64,000 nt of DNA from Balanoglossus misakiensis. Lineage: Eukaryota; Animalia; Hemichordata. Of this stretch, positions 20,191 through 59,200 are shown one piece after another. The stretch covers positions 4,161,125 to 4,225,124 of the forward strand of contig CM082586.2 in assembly GCA_040954595.2 (NCBI GenBank), written 5' to 3'. Within the stretch, counting starts at the first letter, position 1. Every line of letters begins with the position of its first letter. Made by a program: the position numbers and the translations under genes. The notes under the pieces were generated by a model. That model saw only the letters and a program-made list of their open reading frames with translations. It was not told the origin of the DNA and ran no database searches.

Positions 20191-20269
20191 CAAATTCTAA
20201 CCGCTCCCCAACTCTCCGGGTACAGAGTAATGTGCGAACTGTGCGTTTATTTACACAGGGACTTACAAA

Positions 20270-22387
20270 ATGGCGCAGCTTCAGCGGACGGTTTGGCTTC
20301 TTCTGGTGTCTCTGCTGACAGGTGAGATCCACTTGAGGTTCATGTCCAACAATTGGTCTGAAAGTCGTGTTGTCAACTTCACGCATCATGACCTGAAAAT
20401 CTTTTATGCCCATGATGCTTATATTTATTCCAATCAGAATGAACTTATCCGTTACAAGCAATAGTTCCAACAACATTCAACTCCCGCGACGCTGATCACT
20501 TTACGAGAGCCATATACTTTTAAAATACGTTCCTTATCAAATGCCTTGAATCCATATTTTTCATGAGTCAATCATATGTTTTAGCGCTTTCTCATATTTA
20601 TGAGGCTAAATGGTCAACCCTTCCACTAAGGTCATTCGATTCAGGTAACCGTTATAACACACCACACTGAGGCACAATTAAGTATTAAATAAATACAATG
20701 TAGTCCGGTTTGCGAAATAGTTTTTTAATTATCAAAATGTATCGCGTGGAATCTCGTACAACTATACCATGGAATGATATATTTCAATTTCAGACAGAAT
20801 AAAATATGTCAGCCAGAATAAAAATCATGATTTCACGATAAAAATTAGAGTGTAACGACTACGGTATACTGTTGTTAATGTTAATGCGGGACATGGTATT
20901 AACAACCAGGTTGATGTTTAACTCGAATATTTACCGTTATGGAGAGGTCACCAGCAGACAGCGTCGGCAAATTTGCAAATGGCTGCCACCTGAAGTTGTC
21001 GTTCAGGTCGGCGCTACCTGTATTTTGGACATTCTTGCTTTCAACCAAATCATGCGGGGTAAATCTTGGAGCAGCATAGACTTCTTTGTCGTCAACAGAG
21101 CAGTACAAATATGCAAAGTTGAGACTATAATAATCACGGGATTCTAACTGAACGACAGATTGGCCTGTTTGCGATTGCTTGCTCTTTTTTACAAGCACAA
21201 ATGTATATATGTGTTTGTATGTATGTATGGATGTAAGTTTATATTTTGTACGTTGTTCTTTTTTCAGCATTGGATGCTTGCTCAGCGCAGGACGACACGC
21301 TGGACGTAGTGACCGACCCGACGTCGGAAGGGGTTACCGAAGACTCCGTGACGTTGAAGTGTACTTACCACCTGCCGAGCTACTACCAGAAAGAGGTCAT
21401 CATCAGCTGGTACTTTGACCCCACCGACGGGGGAGAAAAGAGCATCATCATGACAAAAACTGATGAAGAAAACCCCATCTATTATGGCAGAGCGTCCGGC
21501 CGACTCGAACACGTCGGCACGCGCGGAGATCTGAAAATCAACCGTCTTGAACTTCTCGACGATGGCGTCTACACGTGTGACGTCAATTTCTATCTGGCCA
21601 AGGAACGGGGGTCCGGCACTACTAAGCTAGACGTGTTCCGTAAGCTTTAGTCCATTATTGATGGAGTCTGGATTTTTTTCTTCTAATTTTTAATAAAAAT
21701 ATACTTTTGATTTTCTGTAGAAATAATTTGAGAGGTTGTCATTGATAAAGCTACACCTCATTTATCTTGGCGCTGCTAATCCGTTGATTTTTACCTCCTT
21801 CTCTGAAAATTTTAGATTTCGTGGATTTTGTTGACATCCTGCAGTACAACCAGGGCGACTACGTGTGGGCCCCGGCGGGCGATGAAGTCTCGTTCGATTG
21901 CAAAGCGACGCGGGCCAAGCCGGAGTCGATTCTAACCTGGTACAAGAACAACGCCGTCATGGACGACGGGGTCTCGCACACCACCTCGAAGAACTCGGAC
22001 GGGACCTATAACACCGAGAGCAGCGTGATCCTGACCCCGACCTTGCAAGACCACAACGCCATCATCAAGTGCGAATCCAAGCAGGACACCAGGTTGCTGC
22101 AAGGGCAGAGAAAAGACGATGCTGTGGTTCTGAACACGAGTAAGCGCATCCCAACTTTAACAGGCCGTCGATCATCTTATGCGCATGTGCCAAACCAGAG
22201 ACTCTCGTTGCGAAAATACGGTCGGACGTATACTAGGCGCGTACAGAAAAGTAACACATTTCTCGGTTTTGAATACTGAAAAAAATATTAACTTTTCTTT
22301 TTTTCGACCACAGGTGGTGTTGTGATAAATACTGGCAATTTCGTTCTCATGGCGCTTACAATATTTCTGCACCACGTGATACAATAG
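20270..22387 (+). CDS. IgSF V-C2 putative GPI-anchored protein, paralog 1 (~273 aa)
   Basis: Exons 20270-20321 (MAQLQRTVWLLLVSLLT leader), 21268-21639 (V-set: TLKC..ISWY..DDGVYTC..GSGTTKLDV), 21816-22139 (C2-like: FDCKATRAKP..LTWY..DGTYNTES..IKCES), 22314-22387 (SGVVINTGNFVLMALTIFLHHVIQ*). All introns GT-AG and phase 1; spliced length 822 nt, in frame. Confidence 0.88.
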
Positions 22388-23995
22388 AAACGGTAAGTCA
22401 TACGTCGTCGGGGAATCACTCCCATCCACCACCTGTCACGTGACGTGTACAATGAACACCTCCAAGATTGCCATCTTTATCGCAGAAGTCCACTTTTAAC
22501 AATTTTCTCATCATTTTCGTGTTGTCCACAGAACAAATACTTTGTACACATGTACATGACTTGACAAGCGGAAAACTGGACGTGTTTGGTATACCATCAT
22601 TATTTTTCTATTTCATAAATTTCAAATACTTTCAGATACCATCAATCAGATGCCAGCCATCTACTCGTAGACTGCCACTCTAAGTAGTTAAACCAGAGAT
22701 TATTATCACGTGATAGCATTCAATGGATACCATTCGTCAGAAGATGTTATGACGTAGTTTATCATCCGTATCCCAGTCTTGCATATTATATTCTTTCAGG
22801 ATAGTTTTGTATTCGCGTATTTACTTTTCAACTAGTTTGGTGAAAGAAGCAGCTTTTCGCATCATGGGTGTGAAGTGGTGATTTTGAATTGGTGAGGAAA
22901 CTCATAACAATGAAGACATCGAAGATATTTAAGGCCAAAAACCCACATCTACGATGTTCAGTCTAGCAGATATGAACGACATTGTCTTTTGTATTTTATC
23001 TTTTCGTTTGACTGACCGACTCAGCTCTTTGTACGAGATTTTTCAAAAAAAAAATCTTCAAATGCAACCAATTTATGTCAATAAATCTTTTAATTTGTAC
23101 AAATATTAACGCGAAATTGTTGTTACTATTTCCTTTCATGTCTTTAAAATACCTGACACTTATACACCGTGTTCACTTGAAGCAGAAATATCCGTCAGTG
23201 ATATATATAGCTACATTGACCTTTGTGTCGACCAAGCTGGCAACTCCGGGTCAGCGTCCTAAACTCTCATTTGAGATTCTTGTAGTTCTCGTAAATCAAA
23301 AGATTTTGTCGTGCACGTCGATGATATGTGCTTGGTACACATTCCAAGCTATTGTTGATCGGACATTTTATTTGAACAACAAGAAAACTTTCAAGCAAAT
23401 CTGTCTGGGTTTATAAGAAAAACTTTGAAAAAACTGGAAATTGTGTCTATATACTGAATATTATATACTTGTTCAGGTGTCTTTTTTTCGATCGCTGATA
23501 GAATACACTGTCTCTGCTTGTGAACATCTGGACTTCAACTGACCCTCGTGTGCGGTCATTTCCATAGCAACATTTGAGTTATATTGATAATGGAGTATAA
23601 CTGGCAAGTCATATAAAGTACAAATAAGCGAGCACCTGTTCGAAGTACCAGGTATTTTGTATGGCGTACCAGTATTCAGCGATCTGCAATAAGTGATTTA
23701 TTTATATACATATACATGTAGGCTACATGTATATATGGAACCGCTATAAGAGTTTATGGATATTAAATATTAACTTTTTAGCCTTTGTGTAAGTAACGGT
23801 TGTGCAACGGCCTGACTGTGCGTAGGTTCGTGACCTGATAAATCACCTTGAACATAAAACGGTGTCAGCCTTACGGGTACCCGGGGGGTTTTGTCAGTGT
23901 GTTTGATCACGTGATCTTTTCAAACCTTCTTGCATATCGGATTCGTAGAACGGAGTTGCTCGATTGTCAAGTTTGTACAGGCAGCTTTGCTGAAT

Positions 23996-25963
<1,968 letters not shown>

Positions 25964-26594
25964 TTCTTTAGTTCTTTCTTCGTTCATCTATCCAAGCTCG
26001 TAGCTGTTGGTTCGTCCGAAATCCCCGAAGTCAACCCATCATCTATTTGACTCAAAGTTTTCGGTCCTCTAACCTTGGAACTGTAAGCAGAACGATCTGG
26101 CCTTGACTTTGAGGTTTTCCGGACACGAGACGTAAAGACCTGATATTAGACTTCGAGACAACCTCCGGTCAGCGGTCACTGTCTGGACAAGGTCACGGCT
26201 TGGATGACCAAGTAATATGTAATTGAAAATCCCAAGTAAAATCCTTCTGAATCGGTTAAATTAGTACAATGTAAATACATTTCCAGCTATTACTTAGTGT
26301 ATGAACAGTTTCGCGAATCTTTCTACAATCAGCATATATGTATATCAACAGTATACAGTTGAATTAAGTTGGTAGCACGGGCTAACAGAAAGTTGCTACC
26401 CAATGTAGATGAGATGCACACTACACTCCGTCAGCTAGGAATGACGGTGAGGAAATGTTAGGCCTATGACAAAATACACAACAAAAGTGTTATATTCGTA
26501 GCAAAAAAACACATTGTTTATCTCTTGGTATTTTTGTACAATAAAAACGAACGTGTCTCTTATCTTAGAGTGTCGGATTTACGTTATGTTAAAG

Positions 26595-26677
26595 GGAGGG
26601 GTGGGGCATCGACAAACAGACAGACAAGCAAACAGACAGACAGGCAGACAGACAGACAGGCAGATAGACAGACAGAC
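26595..26677. repeat. Imperfect (AGAC)n microsatellite
   Basis: acagacagacaagcaaacagacagacaggcagacagacag... Confidence 0.7.
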
Positions 26678-28080
26678 GATGTTTTGGTGCATGGTGTGCA
26701 TTGTGCTGCTCGACTAATGATTAATTTCAGGCACTTCACAGAGGTCAAAGTTCGCGGGTGTGTTATCAGGAGACATCACTGTTTGTTAAGTAACTTGTTA
26801 ATTAAATTAGGAGTGTGAGACATAGCAAAAATCATGGTTATATATAGTAACCTTGGCAATATCATATAAACTTAACTTATTACACATCTAAAACTATGCG
26901 TTCTCAATCAGAATATAATATCCATTGTATAGCTGTTTAAATTTTAATTCATCGTTGACGGCTTCAGTTCATACCCCGGTTACTAAGAAAAATTGAAATA
27001 CATGATGTCATCGGCGTCCATCACAGACTTGTACTGTTAACAGGAACAAACACGTTGCCATTCTATGCCCACACAAATATTGTTTCTATCTCTGAGTAAA
27101 CCCACAACAGTAAATTAATTAATTAATGAACTTTGGCGCTTCTGCTGGAGTTTGGTCCTCACTAAGACCCACATAACAATTGGAAATTTGTGTTGTGGGT
27201 TGAAATGGTGTTGTGTGTGAGTCAGCACCGAGGAATACTGAGGTGGGCGGAAGATGACACCAACAGAAACACTGAGTAAACGGAGGGAGTCATTGTTCGG
27301 TTATTTTCAAACGACCATGACCTTAAAAGGAGACAGCCGCGGCAACCAAGTAGAGGTGTTGAGTCAAACATCCGAGGGGGTGCCGTGGAATCGACAGGAA
27401 TAACCGAGAAAAAATTCCAATCGCGCAGGAACAACATTCAGTGTCAATATAACTCGAGAAAACACCTTGGTGATGGTGTGTTCTGTTTCAACAATTTAAA
27501 TGAAATGGTGAATTGAGCTGAAATGTAAAAATTAGTAGAGAAGTTCCATGGCGATCAAACACCAAAAATTAAAGTAAAATGACAGGCAGCTTTTGAATGC
27601 CGATTAAAATAAATTCAAATTGTGATACGAAAGAAAAAAACATGCATGTAAACCGTTACTTTAGATAAGCTGATTCTAAAAATATGTTACTTATAAATTT
27701 ATAACACATTCAATATTTACACGTGCAGGCAAAAAGGCCTTGGAAAACTTTTGAAAGTTTTGAAAACACGGTCTTGATCATAACCATCGGTGAAAATGCA
27801 TTAAAAATGTTATGAGTGTATGATACATCACCATTTAAAAAAGTTATATCTCATGTAACAAGGTATGAGGTGGACCAGTCACCCAAGGTCGTGAACTTCC
27901 GTACGGTGGGCGACTCGGACGGGTCCAATCAACAGGTGTTTATTTAGGCCCCTTGGTGCGGAGTGATACATTCATTGTTCGTGCAAGTATACGGTAGCGG
28001 TGGTGCACGAGTCGACTCCTTCGCCCCTTCCCTGGATAGAGTAACCGTCAAGCAACACCACCATAAATCAGACAAAGAAG

Positions 28081-30601
28081 ATGTCTAAACTATTCGTGAT
28101 ATTTCTCCTTTCAACAGGTAAGACACGCTTGCCACGGAATTTATAATTAGATGTTTTAATCTCAAGTTTTGTATTCAAAATGGCTGTATTTTGAGGACGG
28201 GTGTAGTTTGGAGGTCTACTCATAGGTGACCACCTGCAAACGACGATATGTTAACCGACTTACACTCATTTCTAGATGGGTGTATGTCTTTACAACCACA
28301 AATATAAAAATATGCAGCATGACCAGAACATGCATCGCACCGGTATATCGGTAGCGTTGTCTGTTTTTGATAATTTCAGCAAACGGAGTCTGTCGTTTGC
28401 ATGGGACATATAAAAGGCGCGGACGCGACAAAGGTGTGGACCTTGTATGTCTACCATAGATATCGCGAAATCAGATAAATCTCGGAGAGAGGTACTATAC
28501 ACATTCAGTAACAGCCTGTAAAGAAAAATCGGTGTGTGTTTTAAGTATGGTTTATTTCCAGAGGCTGTGATCAGCGGGTTTTGCTTTCAGAATGGTAGTC
28601 TTTCTCGTTGTGTGGCATTTTGGCGGCGAGCAACGCTAAAACATTAACTGGACGGATTAAAATTAATGATTGACTTAGAAAAATTAATGTCTACAAAAAT
28701 GGCAGCATTCGTGAAGTGGCGCGGGATGTGTGATTTTTGGAGCACATGGTACATTTTTCTGAAAATTTCTGTACCATGGGTGCCAAAAGCACATAGGTAG
28801 CTTGCAATTTGTAATGTTTACACGCCTAATTAATACATTGAAAATCCAGCGATACTGGGACCACTAAATCTTCATTAGAGTGTGCTGTGTAGTCAAACAA
28901 ACATTTTCACATTGTTTCCACGTCATAGCGAATTCACAGTATTAGGCTAAGTTTATATGAAATGGCACCAACTTCAACTTCGCGTACTTGTTGAAATTTT
29001 CAGGACAATGACTTTTACTTTAGATCGGTTCATATAAAAATCAGTCCGCCGCAAGGCCAGTCTGAGGTCACCAACTGTCACCGCGGATCATATAGCTGGT
29101 GATACATTGACCAACTCTCCTAATATGGACATAGGCATTACGTCACCTTTTTGGTGACGTGGGGACAGGCCACCAAGCGACACATTGAAGTGTATCATTA
29201 ATTATTACCAGAGTCTATCAAACGCTATGCATACCTATATAAGTAGGTATGCATAGCGTTTGTGATAGTAGCGAGTACTATCTATGTTGAGATCTCTTCC
29301 CATCTAATCCTCGCATACCTATCGTACCATAAATGATGAAAACACGGCGAATCGTCTCCCGGCCCACGCATGTTTCTAGCCTACGTTGTTGTTCCCTTCG
29401 TGGAGTGACCGTGCCTTCGTGAAGTGGTACCACGGCATTGTTTTAGATGTGGGGTAGTCTGACTGTGAGTCATCGAAGCGCATGCGTGGGTGACATTGAC
29501 ACCTCCGCGTGTTGATTACACACATAGCTAAAGATGAAAATGTTGGCTGCATTTAATAAATTCTCACCAAGTAAAGAAACTTCGTGACAGTGTATTCATG
29601 TAGTTGTACTGATGTTCTGTGACCTGTATCTTAACAACCAGGTCAATGTACAAGTACAACTTCCATGCTCGGTTTAATTCAACGCTTAAAACGTCTTGGG
29701 ATCCTTGGTGTGCGCGCGTGAGTGCGAGTGTGTGAGTGTGTGTGTGCGGATGTTTAATTTTTTTCAACTTGCGCGACAGTTCATTATTTTATTTCCAAAG
29801 AGCACTAACAAACCAAAATTATTTTGGGACCGGTAACATCCATTAACAATTTCCAAAGAACACTAACAACGCCTTGAACTTAGTCGAATTGACTTTTACT
29901 CCAATTAACGAAACAGATGATACGGTCAAGATTTATTAGAGTAGTACCCTTCCCATAATGAATTTTGGTTTGTTTGTTTGTTCCCAGTTGCCTCCACCGC
30001 ATATGGGTTGAGCGTGACAACGGACCCGCTGCATGAGGGTTTGGAAGACGAAACCGTCACGCTGAAATGCCAGTACACGCCCCCTAGCGAGGGCGGCAGT
30101 CAGTACTCGATAACTTGGAAATTCACCGGCGAATATTCCTCTTCGACGACGCAAGAGATCATTTACGTGCACGAGGGCAGCGGTACCAGCACGGCCTACG
30201 GTCAGTTTGCGGGCCGGGCGACTATCAGCGGGTCTCGCGGTGATCTGCGCATCACCAAGGTGAAAATCGAGGATATCGGGGATTTTGTCTGCGAGGTCAA
30301 CTATTACGTCCTCACCGATCTCGGCTCGGCGTCTACACGGTTGGAAGTCTACGGTAAGTGAAGTTAAGTTTCTATTTATCGTGATAACTTTACTAGAAAA
30401 AAAAGATCCACTGCGAAAGTTGTATGTGCAGAGTTGATAGAGAAACTTTAAAATCTATGTCCCAGACAGCAACTAAATGATTTACCACATCACAACACAA
30501 CACAACACAATACATAACATCACATTATATACCATATAACAGCACAGCATAGCATATCAACAGCCTGAAGATGATGATGATGGTAGTGGTGGTCGTCGTT
30601 G

Positions 30602-30639
<38 letters not shown>

Positions 30640-31283
30640 AATTCGTTTTCACTTCATTGCAGCTGTCGTTGAGAGAGTTGACATCATGGAATACTACACT
30701 GGAGATTACGTCTACGTCAAACCGGGCCAAACGGAGGAATTTACTTGTAAAGCCTATAGAGGACGCCCTCAGGCCAGAATTGTGTGGTACTTCGACAACC
30801 AAGAAGTCTACGGCGGCAGCGAGAACGTGATTGACAACAGGGACGGCACATACGACACAACCTCCATGTACAGATACAATTCCCTGAGAGAAGACCACAA
30901 CAAGATCCTGAAATGCCAGTCTGACCAAACGCCTCAGATAGAATACCGTTATGAATATGACCACATCTATCTCAATACAGGTTGGTGTCAGATTATATAC
31001 TAGTAGTTTCTACTAGGCACAGCTAAATATGATTTGCATATTTAAATCCTGTGCGAAGTCAACACAACCAGAACTCGTCTGAACCACGTGGCAGTCACGT
31101 GCTCCCATTAGTGGTGCACCCATCTCTGACACCTGTCTCCAAGCACATCTTGAAAAATCATACCACAAATCGCCGCGGTCTCCCTAACACAGTCATTTCT
31201 TTCCTCTTACAGCTGGGGCCTCAACGGTGACCCTGAGTATCACAGCTTTCATATTGAGCTTACTTCTTGTTGCTGCAAATTAA
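28081..31283 (+). CDS. IgSF V-C2 putative GPI-anchored protein, paralog 3 (~263 aa)
   Basis: Exons 28081-28117 (MSKLFVIFLLST, donor AG|GTAAG), 29988-30353 (V-set: TLKC..ITWK..DIGDFVC..GSASTRLEV), 30663-30980 (C2-like: FTCKAYRGRP..IVWY..DGTYDTTS..LKCQS), 31213-31283 (AGASTVTLSITAFILSLLLVAAN*). Phase 1; 792 nt, in frame. Confidence 0.87.
29219..29262. repeat. 19-bp perfect inverted repeat (hairpin) in intron 1 of paralog 3
   Basis: CAAACGCTATGCATACCTA-tataag-TAGGTATGCATAGCGTTTG. Confidence 0.85.
30602..30638. repeat. (GAT)n microsatellite, intronic
   Basis: About 12 GAT units just upstream of the acceptor at 30662. Confidence 0.9.
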
Positions 31284-32506
31284 TTCTGAAGGTAATTTCC
31301 ATATTTTTTTTTTCTTCTAGAATTATTCAATCGCTCACGAATAAATTTACTTGCAAACAAATATGGCGAGATAATAAAGATAACCTCGATCGCACCCTTT
31401 GTTACATTTTCTTGACGCCATTCTCTTTTTTTTTCAGTTTCTAGGGTAGTGTTTGGGCCTAAATGAATGCTGGGAAGAGGAAGTTTCAACATCGAAAGGA
31501 AGAGAAGGCTCCAACGAAGTCAGATCGCGAAAAAAAAAATATTGTTTACCCATGATGCATCGCGATCCGTCAGTCCCACCGGGCAATTTTTTATGATGAC
31601 ATAGCTGCCGAACGTTATTGTAATTTTTGAAAGTATTTTTTACAAACCAGGATATTATAAAGGAAACTCTTATTTTAATTAATCCGCGAATATAGTTAGC
31701 GTAGGATTAAATTTGCGAATTCTTGCAAACGCAACGTCCAAGAAAGTTAGTTTCTGGTCGACACAGAGATATTTCATTTTATGTGGACAATGTGACAAAA
31801 GTAACCGAACGCTATGTAATAAGGCATCGTCGCAACCACAACTACACTCATGTACATAATAAATTATGACATAATCGTTTTCAATCAATGTTAGAGTGCT
31901 TGTTCAAACTTTACTGCCTATTATCCCACAGCCCTATATATCCTTGCTGACTTGTATGATACATGTATATGTACTTGTACCCAACTTATTCACCTAAAAT
32001 TTCAATCATTGACGAAGAAAAGTAAATTAAAGATCAAGCCCGAAACTTATGCAGTTACATGACTTTTTCTTATCAAATATTTTCAGTTTACCGGTTTTAT
32101 CTATCGTGTGAGGACAATTTAAAGATTGTTACGTAATGTACTTTTTGTGACAGTTTTTATAATAAACATCGTTTACTATATTTTCTAGCGTCTGGACAAT
32201 ATTTGAGAGAGGGGGGAGGGAGGGAGGGAGGGAGGGGAGACAGATGGAGAGAAATGGAAAGAGATAAGAGATATAAACAGACATACAGACAGACACAGGC
32301 AGACAGACATACATACACAGACACGGACAGAACGTGTAATTGTGTCAAATACATAGGCGATACGTGTGTATGTTTTTGCCGCATCGTGTACGCGTTTTCA
32401 GGGATACAAAAAGATCAGGGGATGGTGCCACGAATTTAAAATCAAGTACTATTCATCTCGCGCGTCTCTTACACATTATTTGAAACACACTTTTCTATTT
32501 TTTCAG

Positions 32507-33640
32507 CTGCTCAGCTGACATTTTGCCAAGACGAAACCCCAACCGAAGGAAGGCTTGTCATAGTGACAGATCCACTTGTAGAAGGGTTGACCGACTCAAC
32601 GGTGACTTTACAATGCGACTACGAGCCACCCGAGACAGACAACACGAACAGCTACCTGATTGAGTGGACTTACGTACCGGAAGCTACAGAAGAGCAAGAG
32701 GCCGTTTTTCGACAAGATGGCGCCGGTGGGGGAGAGCCGCATGGCGATTTCATTGGACGTGCAGCGATAGTTGGCGACAGGGCCGACCTGCAAATCAGCC
32801 GCCTCCAGCTGTCGGACACGGGCGACTTCCGGTGCTCGGTGAGGTACTACATGGATGACATCTACGGCGAGGGCGAAACAAGACTTGAAGTTTACAGTAA
32901 GTTGAAACATAGAACTCCGGGCGAGTCTACGTGATATGTATGTCTCTGACGAAAGCGGGCGCTTTCTGGGTTCTCTGTCCCATTCCCACCGCTGGCTGTG
33001 CTTTAAAAAAACCTATAACTAATTTGAGAGTAACAATGCGAATTTATTCTCTCACCCCGACTCTCTCTCTCCCTCTCTGGCCCTCTCCACCTCTTTCTCC
33101 TTCTCTCCCCCCTCTCTCAGAGCCCGTTGATGCGGCCGACATCATTGGACATGAACGAGGAGCGTACGTGCCGGCCCCGCCAGGTGAACCCCTTACTCTG
33201 ACGTGCGTGACCGGCACTGGGCGCCCGGCATCGGAAATCAAGTGGTACAACAACGAAGCCGAAATTCTCAACCCTTACGAGACTACTTTCATTGATAACT
33301 ACGATGGCACATTCAACAGCACCAGTGTTCTGACATACACGTCGGTCGCAATGGATCATGGGTCGATCATAAAATGCGAATCCGATCAAACGCCGGAAGT
33401 CGCCGACATCTTCAGACACGACACTATAGTTCTCAACACAGGTAAGGTCTTACGCAACCATGTCAGTTGAGATAAATAAACAAAACAGTTTTCAAAGCAT
33501 AATATGGATCTATTATGGATCTAATATGGATCGGTTAAGTTGAAAGTGTACTTTTCTTTATCGCAGATCTCTCCGCTGGTTCCAGAATTTATGTGAGTGT
33601 GGTGCTGCTGCTGATCGGCGCATTGATATCTGTCTGGTGA
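32507..33640 (+). CDS. IgSF V-C2 putative GPI-anchored protein, paralog 4 (leader exon not identified)
   Basis: Exons 32507-32896 (AQLTFCQDETP..TLQC..IEWT..DTGDFRC..GEGETRLEV), 33121-33441 (C2-like: LTCVTGTGRP..IKWY..DGTFNSTS..IKCES), 33567-33640 (DLSAGSRIYVSVVLLLIGALISVW*). GT-AG, phase 1, no stops or frameshifts. Confidence 0.85.
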
Positions 33641-34556
33641 TCAGTCTTACGGTGAGTGATAAGGCACCCGCCGTTTGCATGGGGTTTGAGTACGTTGTAT
33701 AGAGTTTCCCTGGATGTAGTACGTTCATTATTCCCGCATTGTAACTTTGAAACTTTGTCTTTCTAACTCTTCAGGTCTGCTATGGAGTAGAGAAGATATC
33801 TGAAGTTAGTCCTTGCCATTTTAGAGCCATTATGGTGCTTTGTTTCAGAAGAAAAAAAACACCACAAAAATATGCAAACGTAGCTTGCCAAAGTAGCTCC
33901 TTCGAATTTTAAAATTAAATTTACAATCGTTTTTTTTTCAGTAACTTGCCAGATATTTCTGCCCTTAAAACTTTTTTTTTTATCATGACTGACAAGTGGG
34001 GTTTTATTTTTATTTCAAACGCTTAGCGAATGAAAAAAATAAAGTGTTGTCATGACGCATGTTTTGTTGTGGAGAATGCGGTAACTCTGCTTAAATTATC
34101 TTGAAACGTAGTTTTAAGTTCTTCGTGTAGTTTGGTGTAAGCCCTTTATTTTTTTGTTGTGGTCTGTTTTGAACCAGCCATCAAATACAGAATAACGCTA
34201 ATCAAGCTAATCTTTTCTTTCTGGCGTTCTTACGTGTCATTTTTATATTTGCCCATCTTTATGAGTAGTTGGTGAGAATATAGAGTGTATACTTTTACAG
34301 TGTTGCGTTTTTAAAGAGAAAAAAAACCGTAGTTAGACTCGCTGGTTTTGTGCTCAGCTGCTATGGTTGCAGCAACAGTTAGAGTAATTAATTTCTTGAT
34401 CGGATGAGATCTCAGTACCTCGAATTTGTAATTTTGTGAGTTTTCTATTGTTTTCTCTGTTCACAAATCAACAGTGGCAAAGTAAAACTTTGTGATTTTA
34501 ATTAATCGTCCTTGTGTTGTCCACCTTTTTTCTCGATTTCAAACGTCTGTCGTATT

Positions 34557-37199: not shown

Positions 37200-39347
<2,148 letters not shown>

Positions 39348-42279: not shown

Positions 42280-42461
42280 AATAAATAAATAAATAATAAA
42301 TAAAATAAAATAAAATAAAATAAAATAAAATAAAATAAAATAAAATAAAATAAAATAAAATAAAATAAAATAAAATAAAATAAAATAAAATAAAATAAAA
42401 TAAAATAAAATAAAATAAAATAAAATAAAATAAAATAAAATAAATAAATAAATAAATAAAT
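42280..42461. repeat. (TAAAA)n/(TAAA)n microsatellite in the ERF intron
   Basis: ~145 nt of perfect TAAAA flanked by TAAA units. Confidence 0.97.
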
Positions 42462-52569: not shown

Positions 52570-52895
52570 CTGTTCTCCACATCTGTGGTGGCGGCGGTAG
52601 CTGAGGTGGATGCGGCGGGGGCGGTGGTGGTGGTGGAGGCGGCGGAGGTGGAGCCAGCGGTCCCGGTGCCGCCGTCGTCGGCAGTGACTGCGTCGGGGGC
52701 TTGGGTTCCACGCAGGTACACTGCATCATGCTACGGAAACTATGCGGGTGGGGGCGAAGTGGCGCGGACGGCGGCGCTGCGATGTTGTCGACGCAGAACT
52801 TGGCCCCAGCTGCTGGGTGGCTGCTGTTGTTGGTGCTGCTGCTGCTGAAGCCCTGGCCAACACTCTCGCACAGCGTTGATTGTGTCGGCGCGCTC
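52570..52895 (-). CDS. ERF: Probable upstream coding exon of the ERF/ETV3-like gene (Ser/Pro-rich N-terminus)
   Basis: GC-rich island with acceptor TTACAG| at 52896/52895 and donor ACAG|GTGAG at 52570/52569. The frame is open throughout (…SAPTQST…MMQCTCVEPK…poly-Pro…QMWRT). The phase-1 donor joins in frame to 39277, giving QMWRT-GFAFPEW (cf. ERF ADT-GFAFPDW). The ATG at 52729 may be the start. Confidence 0.7.
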
Positions 52896-55780
52896 CTGTA
52901 AGTTCAATAAAGTAGAAATGAAGAGCATTAAGCTTTCAACAATTAAGAGTCCACAGCCAAAGGTACAATATTTTCATCCTAAAAGACTCGACGTTCGTGT
53001 AAGACCTTCACACATATACACATGTCCCATTTCCCCTAGGCCGCGAATGCACGGAAATAAATCGTATACTAGCAGCACATTTGCGACAGGAGAGCTAATT
53101 AGAGACACAAATATCGGGATACTTCATGTTTGGAACGACGTAATAACCAGCAGAGCTGACGTCAAGAAATTAAACTTTGTTAAAAACACATCTAAAAATA
53201 ATTTTAAAAACAAATAACAATAAGCTGTGTTTTTTTTAAAGTAAACTCACCATACGAAACCAAGACCCAGCCTTGAAAACAACTCATATGTATGCATTTG
53301 ATGAGCCGACAACCAAAACATGGCCCACAGTTTAAGGTGTTGGCTACGACGGCAAATACACACGTGTTGTCAATTCGCAGACTGCGATAAAACTAAATAC
53401 TACACAAAACATCATCTTCGCGACGCCCTCTTGCAAAATTTCCACAACAGATAATGCGTGACGTCACTCACGTGTTCTAACAAGCGCATTTCGGGACACA
53501 GCCCATGCGCCGGTGTGTTTCGTACTAAACGCGCCAATGCTCTCGTAAATTGTATCACATCTTAATGAATTGTTTAATTGTCTAAGTGTGTCCCCGACGC
53601 TGCCCCCATAATACGCATGCCCAGATCTGCCAACAATGTAATTTACAGCGCCATACTCAACCACCGGCCACGACTTGCTTAACATTCTATAATCGTAATT
53701 ACTGTCAATCTCTCGGCGGTCGTGGAATATTTCACTTCCCGCCGCCGCTTTCCATACCCCTCCCACCACAAAATTTAGCATAAACTTAAACACAGCACAA
53801 AAAGGGACTAAATTCTCGGAATTCGCCGCTTTTCGTCGCGCGCAGGCGATTTGCCGCGCCCGTTAAATCCCAACCAGCGCACTGCACTTCCTCAGTGGAC
53901 GAAGGACGTGTAGCAACATTAATAGCGCAGAATTAATCTGAAGCGGTAAATACATTATTTTAAGCGTCGTATTGACATTTAATTTTCCGGGTCAACGACA
54001 TTTCAATCTCACTCCTGTTTGTCTATATTTCTAAAACTGATATTTAAACTCTATAAATAAAGTTCACGCATGCAGACATAGGTTTTCTATCTCCACGGGT
54101 TCTATTGTCTTGGAAGCTATACCGGGACTCGGGACAGCGATACAAATGGTACGTATACGGACTTCCTGTCACTAGGATCGGAGAAGGACGATTACCTTTT
54201 CGAAGTCATTTATCTTAGCGCCGTGATAATGACAAGTAACAAGGTGAAGAGGCTAAACAACGTTGAAAACTGTTCATATTTAGAAAAACAGTAATGATAA
54301 CAATGCTAGACAGTAATTGGAGTACTGGATATTAGCGTTGAGTATCTGGCAAACGCCTCGATACTCTGAGATTAGCCGTGCATACAGACGAAACGACCGA
54401 CCTTGATTCAGAATGACATCAAACAATGAATTGCTTTTGCGGAGTTTTTTTGTGCCGTGTTGTGATCGCGTGGGGTTTTGACAGATCCCGATATCAGTTG
54501 ATGTCATGACAATGATGTTTGACATGAACGGTTCATCTTGCTATTTTGCGCCAAACTGGCAAAGTGGTTCGTTAATAAAAACGACCATCATCTCCAGAAG
54601 TAATTGAAATTGTCAAAAGAATACAAATCCGAAGCTTGCGGTGATAGTTTCGCCCTTGAAATTACACATTTCCCGCCCTAAAACACATTATAAGCAATTT
54701 CCTAATTAGGCGCCGTGCCTGTGAGACAATTTTTTTCGATGATTTTTGTTAAAAAGTAAGATCACCACTGATAAGAATGACAGAAATGCTAATACAGTGA
54801 AATCAAGTAAAGTTGGACCTGTCGGGAACGACTTCAAATACGACATTCTCGCGCGAACACGCTAAACGCAATACATATAGCTAGCAAGAAACACTGATTG
54901 TACTTACATGGCTAAGTTCTTAGAGTGGCTGAGATACAACGATAGCTATAGGTGAGCTAACACTATTCCAGCACCGCGTAACTATATCCACTGCCAAGTA
55001 CTAGCCAACTGTCACTTCCTTGTTTTCTGAGCTTTGAGTATATATATAGTACATTTTGAGTGTATTTATTTCAGGATATCCATAAATATGCAGAACAGTG
55101 TTTATTTTCTTTGCGGTTTTCCTATATTTTCTGAAAATCGGTAGCCTCCAGGCCAAGTCTAGCGAGAGAATCCAATAATTCGTTTCCGCTTTCTCCCATG
55201 TTGTTTTCAATCTCGAGGAAGAAGCGCCCCTAGCCAACACCCGGGTGACCGCAACGCTGCCGTGCGTCTGTTACATCTGTACGGCCCCGCCTGCCGATGA
55301 CGACTGATTGTTTGATCATCGGCGCGGGGTTAGAGGGCCCTGAGAATCGAACATGTCTTATTTGTCACCCGGATGTCTGCTTGTGTTACAAACACACAGA
55401 TCAATGCCACCATTGCCCGCCGTCCTATTTTGCCCAGTGAATCTGTTGTTATTTTCATTCAAATAGGAAGATATCGACGCCTCAAAACGGATGCTTTCTC
55501 TTCATGGTTTAACTGATTTCATCAATTTTGCTCCGTGTTTTTTTGAAATCTGAACAGAGTTCGGAGAGTGTGACAGTTCCCGCCGCCTACTTCCTCACAG
55601 CGACCCCACAATAATATTATGGTCTGGAAATTCATTTGTCGGAAGTTTGTCCATTTGTGACAAAACAAAGTATCTTCAATCACAGCGGGTGAAACAAATT
55701 TGTTATCAGAAAAATAACACTTATCCTTGTTGACAAGACGATTGTTAATTTTTGACATATTGGAATACCTATAGGCCTAT

Positions 55781-56145: not shown

Positions 56146-56282
56146 GTATGTATGTATGTATGTATGTATGTATGTATGTATGTATGTATGTATGTATGTA
56201 TGTATGTATGTATGTATGTATGTATGTATGTATGTATGTATGTATGTATGTATGTATGTATGTATGTATGTATGTATGTATG
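56146..56282. repeat. (TATG)n microsatellite
   Basis: Perfect GTAT run of ~136 nt. Confidence 0.97.
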
Positions 56283-59200
56283 TGTGTGTGTATGTGTGTA
56301 TGTGATTGTATGTATACACTGTATGTGTGAAAAACTGGTCATTATAAATATATAATGGAAAAACTAACAAATGCATGAGATATACACACAAATTACACGA
56401 CATATTTATCCGCATTAAGCATTCACTTTCTTTCTATGCCTTGTCACAAACTCCAGAGAAGGAAAATGACTAAATACCAACACTACTTTGAAACGCGTAG
56501 ATTGTGCAAAGTTAGTGAAATGGGCTTGTATGCAAATCTCGCATTTAAGCGTAATGTACATCATAGCTGTATAGCCGAACACAATAACAGCGTGCATTGA
56601 TTGCTGCGGGCGATTCTATTAGAATACAATTTATACAAAGGAAGAGAATTTCAGGAATAGTCAATCCCGTAAAAACTGGGTAATCTTTCGACTTCATACC
56701 GGGCATTATAATTCCCCCTCGGCGGAGATTTCCGTTTGTGCAGGAGACCGAAGTCAAACAAAAAGGATCCCGAATTGTATAGGAACCACGGCGGATTGTA
56801 TCTCGACTATCAGGAAATGTGACACGGAAATCCCAGCAAAAACACGGAGGTATTTGCCTACAAAATGCATGGATTTTTTCTGGCAATCTTTAAATAGACA
56901 CTTGAAGCAGATGTTGGCGGGAAGGAGTGGAAGATCGGGGCGGCGGGGAAGAAAGAAAAGGCCCGGAAAACCGGCTGACTCTACGGATGTATAAACACGC
57001 CAGCTTTAGAACTTGACTACATGCCCCGGCAACACTGTCTATTTCCCCGCCGTTCGCTGCAAATCGATGCAACAATGCGTGTCCGATTTGCGCGGAACAT
57101 TTGACACTATTTTATCATTGTGTGACGTGACACGGTTCAAATAAAGCTATCGAATTTGGATATTTTTTCGTGAACTCTGAAAAGATGGGGTCGGGGTTTA
57201 GAACAATTGAACATCTATTCTCATTTTAACGTATACGTAAACGACAACAACCGACCAACAATATATGCAAGATTATGAAAGTGTTCCCTCAACTTGGATT
57301 GCCAATCAAACAAATTACACAGGAAATAACAAGGCACATCGATGACAAAACGGCGCAGAGAGTGAGAATTAATTGATTCCATGGAAACGGAGAATTCCAA
57401 ATGACAGACGAAGAAAGTCTACAAACGTACTCAACACCACCCTCCATTCTTTAGAATCAATCACCGCGGCAAACAGTATAATACCGGGATATCCCAGAAC
57501 AGAAACCGTTTCTTCAATTACAAATTATGAAACACCAAACTATCAACAATACCATTGACCGTAAAAGGAAAAAAATCAGAGATTTATTTGCCTGGTCACG
57601 AAGAAATGATTTTCATTCTCATCGTATTCTATAGGTGCAACACATTGTCTCGGGTAAACTATGAAAACGCTGCATTCATTCCACAAGCACGAAATAAATA
57701 TTTATTGAAACTCAGACAAAAATTTGCATATCTCTTCTTATCTTTTTTTTCTCAATAATTATTTGTGATTTTTCAGTACTGTTTTCTTTCACGTTCCCGT
57801 CAACTTGCACGATTCATGATGGAGTGTGGGGTAGGCTTTTTTTCTCCCGCGTTCGCTGAGATCGGTTTTAGGACAGCGGTTTTTACCATTAGTACAATGC
57901 GCGCTAGATTGACATCAGGACGATGTATGCAGGGGTATAGTTTCCATTCAAATGCAGTGTGTACGGAATCTGTAGAACATAAAATCAAATTTTGATACCC
58001 TCTCAATTATTCAGCCGTGGACTCGGGTGAAGTCGACGCATTTTACACGTGTCTGTCGCCAGCTTATAAAACTTTGACGATTTTCCGTCTGACGGCGGCG
58101 CACCGTTCCCATTCGGCTGACCACGAATGGGGACCCAGATAGCCCCAAGTTAAAAAGGTTAGACATAAAGACATCCCCCAAAGCAATAAAACCACGTGTG
58201 TGGAGTGGAAACACTTGGCGTCCAAATGCTATGACCGGCAGCACTTCCCCGACCCCGTTCTATCATTTGAAAAACCTTCCCCATCTCGTCAAATGCTGTC
58301 TGTAAGACGTGTCAACCGATCTCCGATCTGCTGGCACGTTAAGGAGAAAAATGACTGTGTGAGAACACTCCGAAAAGTATCATTGACTGGCTTCTTTATA
58401 CGTGTGGGGTTTTCAGCAAATCGTTCGATTTTGGCGAAGAAAATTTTGGCGAAGAACAAGGAACAATCTGTGTGTACTTTTGTCACCTAGGGTATTTGGA
58501 TTGGTTACGCGTCTATGCCCCTTACATCATTTAATAATCTTCGGTCGGTAGTAGTCTCTCTTACAGACGTAAAACCTGAGCTTTGCCAAAATCAAGACTC
58601 TTGTACACTTATTGAATGACGCGCACGCTTTTGCAAGAGACGAGCTTGACAACGGGCCAGACACAAAGGGAACCACAGTCCCGGTGAACAGCGCCCCCAG
58701 TGATAAGCAACAAACAATAGTCCAAGCAGAATCACAGCTTTCAATGCGATAAGTAAAATCCCCGGATGTTAACGTTGTTTTTCAGCCTCCTTGATTTTTA
58801 CCGGTAAAACTCATGTAAAAAGGAACCCTGCCGACAGCAGTGTAAAAGTGTGAAATTAAATCGGAATGATTTACGTTCAAAACAACAACCATCCTGGTAA
58901 ATATTAAAAAAAAACCTTGGTTTATCATGGAAGTAGACTTTGTTTTCCAGGTGCTATTAAGCCTTTCTTCAAGAACAATATGATCTGTCATCTTCCATGC
59001 GTGAGTTCGTCGCAGGCGCGCTTGAAATTTATTCTGACTATACAAAAAAAGTACGAATCACCATGATTTCTAATCTATTTTCGGAAAGTGGATCCATGCA
59101 GTCGCTAGGCAACGATCGCTGGGCAACGTGCGCGTCGTACACCTAAACGAAGTTATAATGAATGCTGAACTCGTCAAAACTATCTTGCTGTTGTTGTTGT

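What the first reader, a model, noticed from the sequence alone, without database searches (positions are those of the whole stretch)
20270..33640. Tandem cluster of four diversified V-C2-GPI immunoglobulin-superfamily genes with J-like G strands
Seen: four paralogs with the same one-domain-per-exon, all-phase-1 layout. Each V exon has C..W..DxGx(Y/F)xC followed by a J-like strand ([36 protein letters not shown]). Framework residues are kept, while the loops equivalent to CDR1 (YHLPSYYQKEV / [11 protein letters not shown] / YTPPSEGGSQY / YEPPETDNTNSY) and CDR3 (NFYLAKER / DYYVEGDA / NYYVLTDL / RYYMDDIY) differ strongly. All four end in a small-residue stretch plus a terminal hydrophobic segment, with no cytoplasmic tail. 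Known: V-C two-domain layouts define the CTX/JAM, B7 and Beat families, and germline VJ-type domains are proposed precursors of antigen receptors. Inference: this is a lineage-specific, possibly undescribed family of GPI-anchored recognition receptors (immune, allorecognition or neural wiring).
Basis: partly seen in the sequence, partly recalled or inferred. Interest (0 to 1): 0.8.

Follow-up and report, generated by a model that had tools for sequence, protein, structure and literature searches.

The report
Acorn-worm two-domain Ig surface-protein cluster
This is a cluster of four two-domain immunoglobulin-type units from an acorn worm, predicted to be lipid-anchored on the cell surface; two units likely share one start exon, and each has a conserved counterpart in another acorn worm, so it likely serves as a fixed cell-recognition code, not as antibody-like variable receptors.

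Summary
The four V–C2–hydrophobic-tail units are real: intact, GT-AG, all phase 1, Pfam V-set and C2-set_2 above cut-off in 8 of 8 exons. Three corrections. (1) There are probably three genes, not four. Unit 4 has no leader exon of its own, and its Ptychodera flava orthologue is annotated as a splice isoform sharing unit 3's 12-residue leader. (2) The G strands are not J segments: 0 of 17 family members fit the J consensus, and the glycines lie one residue off register. (3) The loops differ between paralogues but are largely kept between orthologues. Each unit pairs one-to-one with a P. flava protein (63–77% identity). Loop identity is 66% against 75% for the rest of V (p=0.10), V evolves no faster than C2, and the FG hairpin length is fixed in 17 of 17. 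All named relatives are from acorn worms (Ptychodera, Saccoglossus), under automatic names only. Best reading: an old acorn-worm family of predicted GPI-anchored recognition or adhesion proteins with fixed, paralogue-specific identities, working like Beat, IgLON or nectin codes but belonging to none. GPI anchoring, partners and expression are untested. It lies beside an ERF-type ETS gene, a lead towards the vertebrate 19q13/1q23 Ig clusters.

The parts
20270..20321 (+). Gene 1 leader exon (signal peptide start), phase 1 donor
   Evidence: ATG, hydrophobic, GTGAG donor
21268..21639 (+). Unit 1 V-set exon
   Evidence: Pfam V-set E 1.7e-14; orthologue XP_070534956
21816..22139 (+). Unit 1 C2 exon
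   Evidence: C2-set_2 E 1.3e-12
22314..22392 (+). Unit 1 tail exon: predicted GPI signal, stop ends 22387, splice donor 5 nt later
23996..24038 (+). Gene 2 leader exon
   Evidence: ATG, phase 1, GTGAGT donor
24748..25107 (+). Unit 2 V-set exon
   Evidence: V-set E 3.3e-8; orthologue XP_070534955
25257..25571 (+). Unit 2 C2 exon
   Evidence: C2-set_2 E 2e-8
25881..25963 (+). Unit 2 tail coding stretch: predicted GPI signal, stop; no donor right after the stop
28081..28117 (+). Gene 3 leader exon (12 codons + 1 nt), likely shared by units 3 and 4
   Evidence: best match in the window to the leader shared by P. flava isoforms X1 and X2, 9 of 12 identical, score 41 vs 17 for the best site between units 3 and 4
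29988..30353 (+). Unit 3 V-set exon
   Evidence: V-set E 1.9e-12; orthologue XP_070534954, isoform X2; AlphaFold pLDDT 93.5
30663..30980 (+). Unit 3 C2 exon
   Evidence: C2-set_2 E 1.5e-11
31213..31291 (+). Unit 3 tail exon: predicted GPI signal, stop ends 31283, donor 8 nt later
32507..32896 (+). Unit 4 V-set exon; begins with the end of a signal peptide; no leader exon of its own
   Evidence: V-set E 6.2e-12; orthologue XP_070534952, isoform X1
33121..33441 (+). Unit 4 C2 exon
   Evidence: C2-set_2 E 1.5e-11
33567..33651 (+). Unit 4 tail exon: predicted GPI signal, stop ends 33640, donor 11 nt later

Best explanation
Three acorn-worm genes likely make four two-domain (V + C2) surface proteins, predicted to be GPI-anchored, which likely act as a fixed recognition or adhesion code between cells. 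Shown: the exon anatomy, the V and C2 folds, tails that end at the stop codon, one-to-one orthology with Ptychodera flava, and slow, even evolution of V and C2. Strongly inferred: gene 3 has one leader exon and splices it either to unit 3 or, skipping unit 3 and its 3' end, to unit 4, so one promoter gives two receptors only about 40% alike. Inferred from known families: the signal peptide leads into the ER, the tail is swapped for a GPI anchor, C2 acts as a spacer, and the outer V domain binds another Ig protein on a facing cell (a family member or a transmembrane Ig partner). Paralogue-specific residues kept across species would set which pairs bind. With no cytoplasmic part, any signal would need a co-receptor. 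Tissue and partner are unknown; nervous system or epithelium is a guess.
For: Orthologue pairs 68, 67, 77, 63% identical vs 34-42% among paralogues; 4 of 4 pairs are sister rows with 99-100 bootstrap in the full-length tree; one clade of window units rejected. Units 2 and 3 also group with Saccoglossus V domains (93/95 and 98/97), so these types predate the two acorn-worm families. V 73% vs C2 70% identical between orthologues; CDR-like stretches 56/85 vs 277/370, p=0.10; F-to-G spacing 15 residues in 17 of 17. 34 of 115 V positions differ among paralogues but are kept in at least 3 of 4 orthologue pairs. Closest solved V folds: MPZ (Z 17.5, rmsd 1.8, 112 aligned), B7-H6 (17.1, 1.5, 107), VSIG4 (16.6), nectin-3 (16.5), B7-H3 (16.4), VCBP3 (16.3), CAR (16.1), largely tied; two-domain model: Lutheran/BCAM, Rst/SYG-1, nectins. 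Shared leader; residue 13 is V in isoform X2 and A in X1, exactly as the window's split codon predicts. GPI-like tail in 4 of 4 window units and 14 of 15 full-length family rows.
Against: No expression, ligand or binding data. Only one close species gives orthologue pairs; no alleles were seen, so polymorphism within species is untested. CDR-like stretches are still somewhat less conserved than the rest of V (66 vs 75%). By my hand count on the table the paralogue-specific positions are not enriched on the predicted GFC face (7 of 17) over the BED face (3 of 8). B7-H3, B7-H6, VSIG4 and VCBP3, all immune proteins, match the fold as well as the adhesion proteins do. The P. flava isoform names come from automatic annotation; I could not see its transcripts or DNA. 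No GPI predictor was run, and the omega site would sit directly after the last C2 strand. One Saccoglossus model (XP_006816785) ends in a Thr-rich, non-hydrophobic tail.
Confidence: 0.55

Rival explanations
1. Innate immune or barrier proteins: GPI-anchored receptors or shed decoys on gut, gill or skin epithelium that bind microbes, like GPI-linked CEACAMs or amphioxus VCBPs.
For: V + C2 + GPI layout parallels CEACAMs (PMC2832619 passages); VCBP3 among the top fold and sequence matches; V loops differ more than framework among paralogues; a 4-gene poly(I:C)-raised cluster in Saccoglossus is enriched for CADM1-linked terms (PMC10210618), and some family members carry automatic 'cell adhesion molecule' names, but the paper's genes could not be identified.
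Against: Stable one-to-one orthology; V not faster than C2; no length variation in FG.
Confidence: 0.22
2. B7-like self ligands: each unit is a conserved ligand read by transmembrane inhibitory or activating Ig receptors of coelomocytes.
For: Conservation of the V surface fits a host ligand.
Against: Identity to B7-H3 is only about 24-25%; no CD28-family homologue was found in Saccoglossus (PMC11599192 passage); no partner tested.
Confidence: 0.13
3. The proteins are not GPI-anchored but tail-less membrane-anchored or secreted; the role may still be adhesion.
For: The best 19-residue hydropathy is 1.6-2.1 in the window units; AlphaFold builds a 21-residue helix at the end of the P. flava protein; almost no linker before the predicted omega site.
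Against: 0-5 residues follow the hydrophobic run and at most one basic residue lies in the last 12 of the window units; small-residue omega candidates 19-27 residues from the end in 4 of 4.
Confidence: 0.12
4. Polymorphic allorecognition locus or a germline VJ precursor of antigen receptors.
For: Tandem V-domain cluster in an invertebrate deuterostome; GxG present in 10 of 17 G strands.
Against: 0 of 17 fit the J consensus, register shifted; loops conserved across species; no signalling tail.
Confidence: 0.05

Closest known systems
Ptychodera flava XP_070534952/954/955/956 and XP_070534881; Saccoglossus XP_006824347, XP_006824349, XP_077861489, XP_006823638, XP_006816785, XP_077865566
   Same: Same family; four are direct orthologues. 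Already in RefSeq.
   Different: Only automatic, inconsistent names (CD276-like, CADM3-like, nectin-1-like, BCAM-like, VSIG1-like, uncharacterized); no family description found in my searches.
Drosophila Beat family (ligands: Side)
   Same: Two Ig domains, clustered paralogues with orthologues kept across species, specificity code (PMC5578738, PMC10084454 passages). The Atlas's nearest feature cluster is a 267-aa, mostly arthropod V-set cluster, score 0.97, not named as Beat.
   Different: Beats are reported only from arthropods; orthology not shown; no Side-like partner tested.
IgLON / Dpr-DIP (Wirins)
   Same: GPI-anchored Ig proteins with homo- and heterophilic codes and no cytoplasmic domain.
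   Different: IgLONs have three Ig domains; here two, V + C2-set_2.
Nectin / Necl (CADM)
   Same: V followed by CD80-like C2; close folds.
   Different: [quoted passage not shown]
B7 family (CD276) and CTX/JAM/CAR/MPZ group
   Same: V-C ectodomain; G strand in the same non-J register as CD276; top sequence and fold matches.
   Different: 17-25% identity; no transmembrane-plus-cytoplasmic part; only two cysteines in C2, without the extra CTX disulfide (recalled).
GPI-linked CEACAMs (CEACAM5-8)
   Same: V + C2 + GPI signal; GPI exon arose from a transmembrane exon by a new stop (PMC2832619); three of four tail exons here keep a homologous donor 5-11 nt after the stop.
   Different: CEACAM1-like genes turn over fast and their binding domain diversifies; the CEACAM N domain lacks the disulfide (recalled), which is present here.
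Amphioxus AmpIgVJ-C2 and other joined-VJ receptors
   Same: Invertebrate deuterostome V + C2.
   Different: Defined by a J-like G strand with a beta-bulge (PMC7916673 passage); the J consensus is absent here.

Membership tests
Joined-VJ receptors (AmpIgVJ-C2, NITR, NKp30 type) | J consensus FGxGTx(L/V)xV in strand G (PMC11599192) | tested here: not met
   0 of 17; glycines one position before those of a light chain. The same pattern test does fire on 5 of 1001 F-strand motifs among the fetched proteins, in 3 vertebrate proteins.
Joined-VJ receptors (AmpIgVJ-C2, NITR, NKp30 type) | Beta-bulge in strand G | tested here: inconclusive
Antigen-receptor-like variable receptors | Hypervariable, length-variable CDR3 | tested here: not met
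   F-cysteine to G-strand threonine is 15 residues in 17 of 17; 28 of 40 positions kept between orthologues.
Nectin / Necl | Three Ig domains, transmembrane helix, cytoplasmic PDZ or ITIM motif | tested here: not met
   Two domains, stop at the end of the hydrophobic run; definition.
IgLON / Wirins | Three Ig domains plus GPI anchor | tested here: not met
   Two domains.
CTX / JAM | V-C2 with transmembrane and cytoplasmic tail; extra C2 disulfide (recalled) | tested here: not met
   Two cysteines per C2; no tail; the V tree keeps the 17 family rows apart from the VSIG4-, MPZL1- and other vertebrate rows, with weak support 84/58.
B7 (CD276) | V-C ectodomain | tested here: met
B7 (CD276) | Orthology by phylogeny or synteny; CD28-type counter-receptor | not tested
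   No B7 sequence was in my trees; identity about 24%.
Beat | Two Ig domains, clustered paralogues | tested here: met
   definition
Beat | Orthology to arthropod Beats; binding to Side proteins | not testable with these tools
   No named Beat among the hits I looked up; the Atlas lead has no alignment.
GPI-anchored proteins | Signal peptide, small omega residues, terminal hydrophobic run, no cytoplasmic tail | tested here: met
   By hand rules in 4 of 4 units; SignalP/NetGPI not available.
GPI-anchored proteins | Anchor actually attached (PI-PLC release) | not testable with these tools
   Needs experiment.
Enteropneust V-C2 family (this report) | One-to-one orthology with P. flava units | tested here: met

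The most novel reading that the evidence does not exclude
The cluster is a surviving, GPI-converted branch of the ancestral deuterostome V-C2 receptor array that sat beside the ERF/ETV3 gene and gave the vertebrate nectin/CEACAM/JAM clusters of 19q13 and 1q23. Acorn worms use it as a combinatorial recognition code, in which one promoter picks whole V-C2-GPI cassettes, and perhaps mixes V and C2 exons across cassettes, by alternative splicing.
Probability: 0.15. Interest if true: 0.75.

Novelty: new variant of a known kind. Interest (0 to 1): 0.42.

Why it matters
Little is known about Ig-superfamily recognition proteins in hemichordates, a close outgroup of chordates; nectins have been traced only to tunicates and Beats only to arthropods. 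A small, stable, closed family (4-6 members per genome, all two-domain, easy to express) is a ready test of whether a Beat/IgLON-like code arose independently in acorn worms. The shared-leader switch between two receptors that are 40% alike, kept in two species, is an unusual way to couple two specificities to one promoter. The ERF neighbour offers a synteny test for the origin of vertebrate leukocyte and adhesion receptor clusters. It is not evidence about the origin of antigen receptors.

Tried and rejected
No whole genome held for the window, so members elsewhere in this genome were not counted. No RNA holder listed for 20200-30199; this says nothing on expression, and no reads were laid. 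Homodimer prediction of the unit 3 V domain: no verdict (0.40, one control 0.37). Metagenome scans: nothing for the unnamed transcript-like protein P0019; one 19-residue match for V3 (L001), treated as chance and not examined. Homologue search with the six-protein profile returned only 3 of its own 6 rows, so the word-based search is insensitive; the exon-length search added nothing beyond two proteins already seen. Of 150 listed representatives I looked up names for 20; absence from echinoderms and amphioxus therefore rests on the score gap, not on a genome-by-genome test. A private leader for unit 4: the only candidates (32049-32105 or 32059-32107) have weak donors or weak hydrophobicity and no likeness to orthologous leaders; rejected. 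Relic cytoplasmic reading frame after the post-stop donors: none evident among the acceptors my pattern found. Recent gene conversion between units: blastn finds only simple repeats and one 66% V match. Clade of units 3 and 4 with their orthologues is rejected weakly (p-AU 0.019), so sharing a leader does not mean they are sister duplicates. dN/dS not possible: no orthologous DNA. AmpIgVJ-C2 was not among the listed fold matches; that excludes nothing. Paper searches for a description of the family and for the synteny idea found none; the library lacks most subscription journals. The supplement of PMC10210618 that I could search held none of six terms; its data tables were not held and may list these genes. 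Earlier-findings look-ups by sequence, place and words were blank.


Full report
Observation. Exon models: gene 1 leader 20270-20321, V 21268-21639, C 21816-22139, tail from 22314; gene 2 leader 23996-24038, V 24748-25107, C 25257-25571, tail from 25881; gene 3 leader 28081-28117, V 29988-30353, C 30663-30980, tail from 31213; unit 4 V 32507-32896, C 33121-33441, tail from 33567. All junctions are GT-AG and phase 1, and no Ig exon has a stop. Pfam V-set and C2-set_2 pass their cut-offs on 8 of 8 exons. A family profile finds these eight exons at E below 1e-38 and nothing else below 0.04 among 3089 six-frame pieces. The feature is real and far beyond chance.

Origin. The C2 profile retrieved five Ptychodera flava proteins and one Saccoglossus kowalevskii protein among its top 8 of 11 hits. 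The V profile against 1.84 billion representatives added further members, named as Saccoglossus or Ptychodera except one unnamed 273-aa protein on a 1118-base contig. In all I hold 17 family V domains, 4 from the window. They score 102-161 bits; the next are 57 (a Saccoglossus V-C protein with a transmembrane segment and tail) and 45 (lizard VSIG4). The window is therefore from an acorn worm closer to Ptychodera than to Saccoglossus, and not P. flava itself. The family looks restricted to acorn worms in these databases; I looked up names for only 20 of the 150 listed hits, and the family branch in the V tree has weak support (84/58).

Three genes, four cassettes. No convincing leader exon lies between the stop of unit 3 and the V exon of unit 4; AATAAA/ATTAAA hexamers run up to 32161, about 350 bases before that exon. 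The P. flava orthologues of units 4 and 3 are named 'CD276 antigen-like isoform X1' and 'X2' (XP_070534952, XP_070534954). They share their first 12 residues and nothing else. The best match to that leader in the window is 28081-28116 (9 of 12 identical, score 41; best site between units 3 and 4, 17). The split codon gives V at residue 13 with unit 3 and A with unit 4, as in X2 and X1. So gene 3 very likely uses one leader with two alternative V-C2-tail cassettes, in two species. This rests on DNA anatomy plus an automatic annotation; I saw no transcripts. Since all phases are 1, mixed forms are possible in principle; none appeared among the hits.

Old fixed paralogues, not hypervariable receptors. 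Orthologue pairs are 68, 67, 77 and 63% identical; paralogues 34-42% (the unit 4 row includes the shared leader). Each window unit is sister to its P. flava protein with 99-100 bootstrap, and a clade of the four window units is rejected (p-AU 9e-8). V domains of units 2 and 3 group with Saccoglossus V domains, so these types predate the split of the two families (some 370 million years, recalled). Among paralogues the CDR1- and CDR3-like stretches are indeed more divergent than the rest of V (26% vs 42%), while comparable C2 loops are not (40% vs 36%); the CC'C'' region is more divergent still (19%). Between orthologues the same stretches are 66% identical against 75% (p=0.10), and V (73%) is as conserved as C2 (70%). 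The distance from the F cysteine to the G-strand threonine is 15 residues in 17 of 17, with a near-invariant tyrosine (16 of 17) at the hairpin; 34 of 115 positions differ among paralogues yet are kept in at least 3 of 4 orthologue pairs, 20 in strands or helices and 14 in loops. By hand count they are not enriched on the predicted GFC face (7 of 17 vs 3 of 8 on BED). Allelic variation is untested.

The G strand is not a J segment. The J consensus is FGxGTx(L/V)xV (PMC11599192, passages). It is met by 0 of 17; 10 of 17 have GxGxTxLxV and 7 have no GxG in that frame. Against an antibody light chain the first glycine falls on the J phenylalanine and the second on the x; against CD276 the strand aligns without shift. 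The confident V model (pLDDT 93.5) is closest to MPZ (Z 17.5, rmsd 1.8, 112 aligned), B7-H6 (17.1), VSIG4, nectin-3, B7-H3, VCBP3 and CAR (16.1-16.6); the first antigen-receptor domain scores 15.2 (Foldseek agrees on MPZ, CAR, MPZL1). The two-domain model of the P. flava unit 3 orthologue (pLDDT 77) matches Lutheran, Rst/SYG-1 and nectin-1 first. A shared fold shows no function.

Tails. In 4 of 4 units the hydrophobic run ends 0-5 residues from the stop, with small-residue omega candidates 19-27 residues from the end and at most one basic residue in the last 12; 14 of 15 full-length family rows look the same. This is a GPI-signal pattern by hand rules, not by a predictor. In units 1, 3 and 4 a splice donor follows the stop by 5, 8 and 11 bases at a homologous place (exons of 79, 79 and 85 bases). 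Primate CEACAM GPI exons arose from transmembrane exons by new stops (PMC2832619, passages); a like origin is possible here, but I found no relic cytoplasmic frame.

Mechanism. Most likely (0.55): GPI-anchored cell-surface proteins whose outer V domain binds another Ig protein on a facing cell, each paralogue with its own conserved specificity, with a splice choice between two specificities in gene 3. This is how Beat/Side, Dpr/DIP/IgLON and nectins work through their first Ig domains (PMC10084454 and PMC5578738, passages). Anatomy, orthology and conservation are shown; anchor, partner, tissue and role are inferred. Rivals: microbe-binding or decoy proteins (0.22), B7-like ligands for paired receptors (0.13; an unreviewed note reports such a receptor cluster in this genome), a non-GPI anchor (0.12, not exclusive), allorecognition or VJ precursor (0.05). 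In Saccoglossus a four-gene cluster raised by poly(I:C) is enriched for CADM1-linked terms (PMC10210618; passages and first part of Results); I could not tell whether it holds a member of this family.

Membership. It fails defining features of nectin/Necl (three domains, tail; PMC7286890 passages), IgLON (three domains), CTX/JAM (tail, extra disulfide recalled) and joined-VJ receptors such as AmpIgVJ-C2 (PMC7916673 passages). Orthology to B7 or Beat was not tested. The RefSeq names are automatic best-hit labels and disagree with one another.

Neighbourhood. Tail to tail, 3.5 kb after unit 4, lies an ETS gene whose domain is far closest to ERF (E 1.6e-36 vs 4e-23 for ERG). Human ERF lies in 19q13 among CEACAM, PVR/nectin-2 and CADM4 genes and ETV3 in 1q23 near KIRREL1, CADM3 and nectin-4 (recalled). 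1q23-24, 11q23 and 19q13 are regarded as paralogons (PMC4536121, passage). One neighbour is a lead, not a synteny test; three searches found no paper on it.

Verdict. Real, intact and apparently undescribed as a family, though its orthologues are in RefSeq. A new variant of a well-known kind: a V-C2 recognition family of acorn worms with predicted GPI anchors and a conserved shared-leader switch. The antigen-receptor angle falls away. Interest 0.42.

Noticed in passing
window 37203-39290 and about 52570-52900, - strand: ETS gene of the ERF/ETV3 type (best solved match ERF), tail to tail with the cluster; ETS domain split by an intron near 39036-38894; a proline-rich upstream exon ends in a donor near 52570 that fits the acceptor near 39277.
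   Followed up: partly
window 1-20006: 88-bp satellite, about 224 near-identical copies, that reverses direction at about 8990 and ends with three variant copies 260 bases before the ATG of gene 1.
   Followed up: partly
window 22393, 31292, 33652: Homologous splice donor 5-11 bases after the stop codon in three of four tail exons; absent in unit 2.
   Followed up: partly
P0005, P0014, P0024 (Saccoglossus): P0005 and P0024 have nearly identical V domains but different C2 domains; P0005's C2 groups with unit 3 (85/86) while the V-only model P0014, on a contig of the same length, has the unit 3-type V. V/C2 shuffling, alternative V exons or an annotation error. P0024 is also named 'isoform X2'.
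   Followed up: no
P0008, P0015 (Ptychodera flava): A fifth full-length member (XP_070534881) and a V-only copy of the unit 2 type on another contig (XP_070555379) have no counterpart in this window.
   Followed up: no
P0019: Unnamed 273-aa unit 4-type protein on a 1118-base contig; too short for introns of the size seen here, so probably a spliced transcript, and it also ends in the hydrophobic tail.
   Followed up: partly
window 25604-25722, 42298-42460, 56146-56315: Long simple repeats (TC, AAATA, GTAT); the TC run lies in the last coding intron of gene 2.
   Followed up: no
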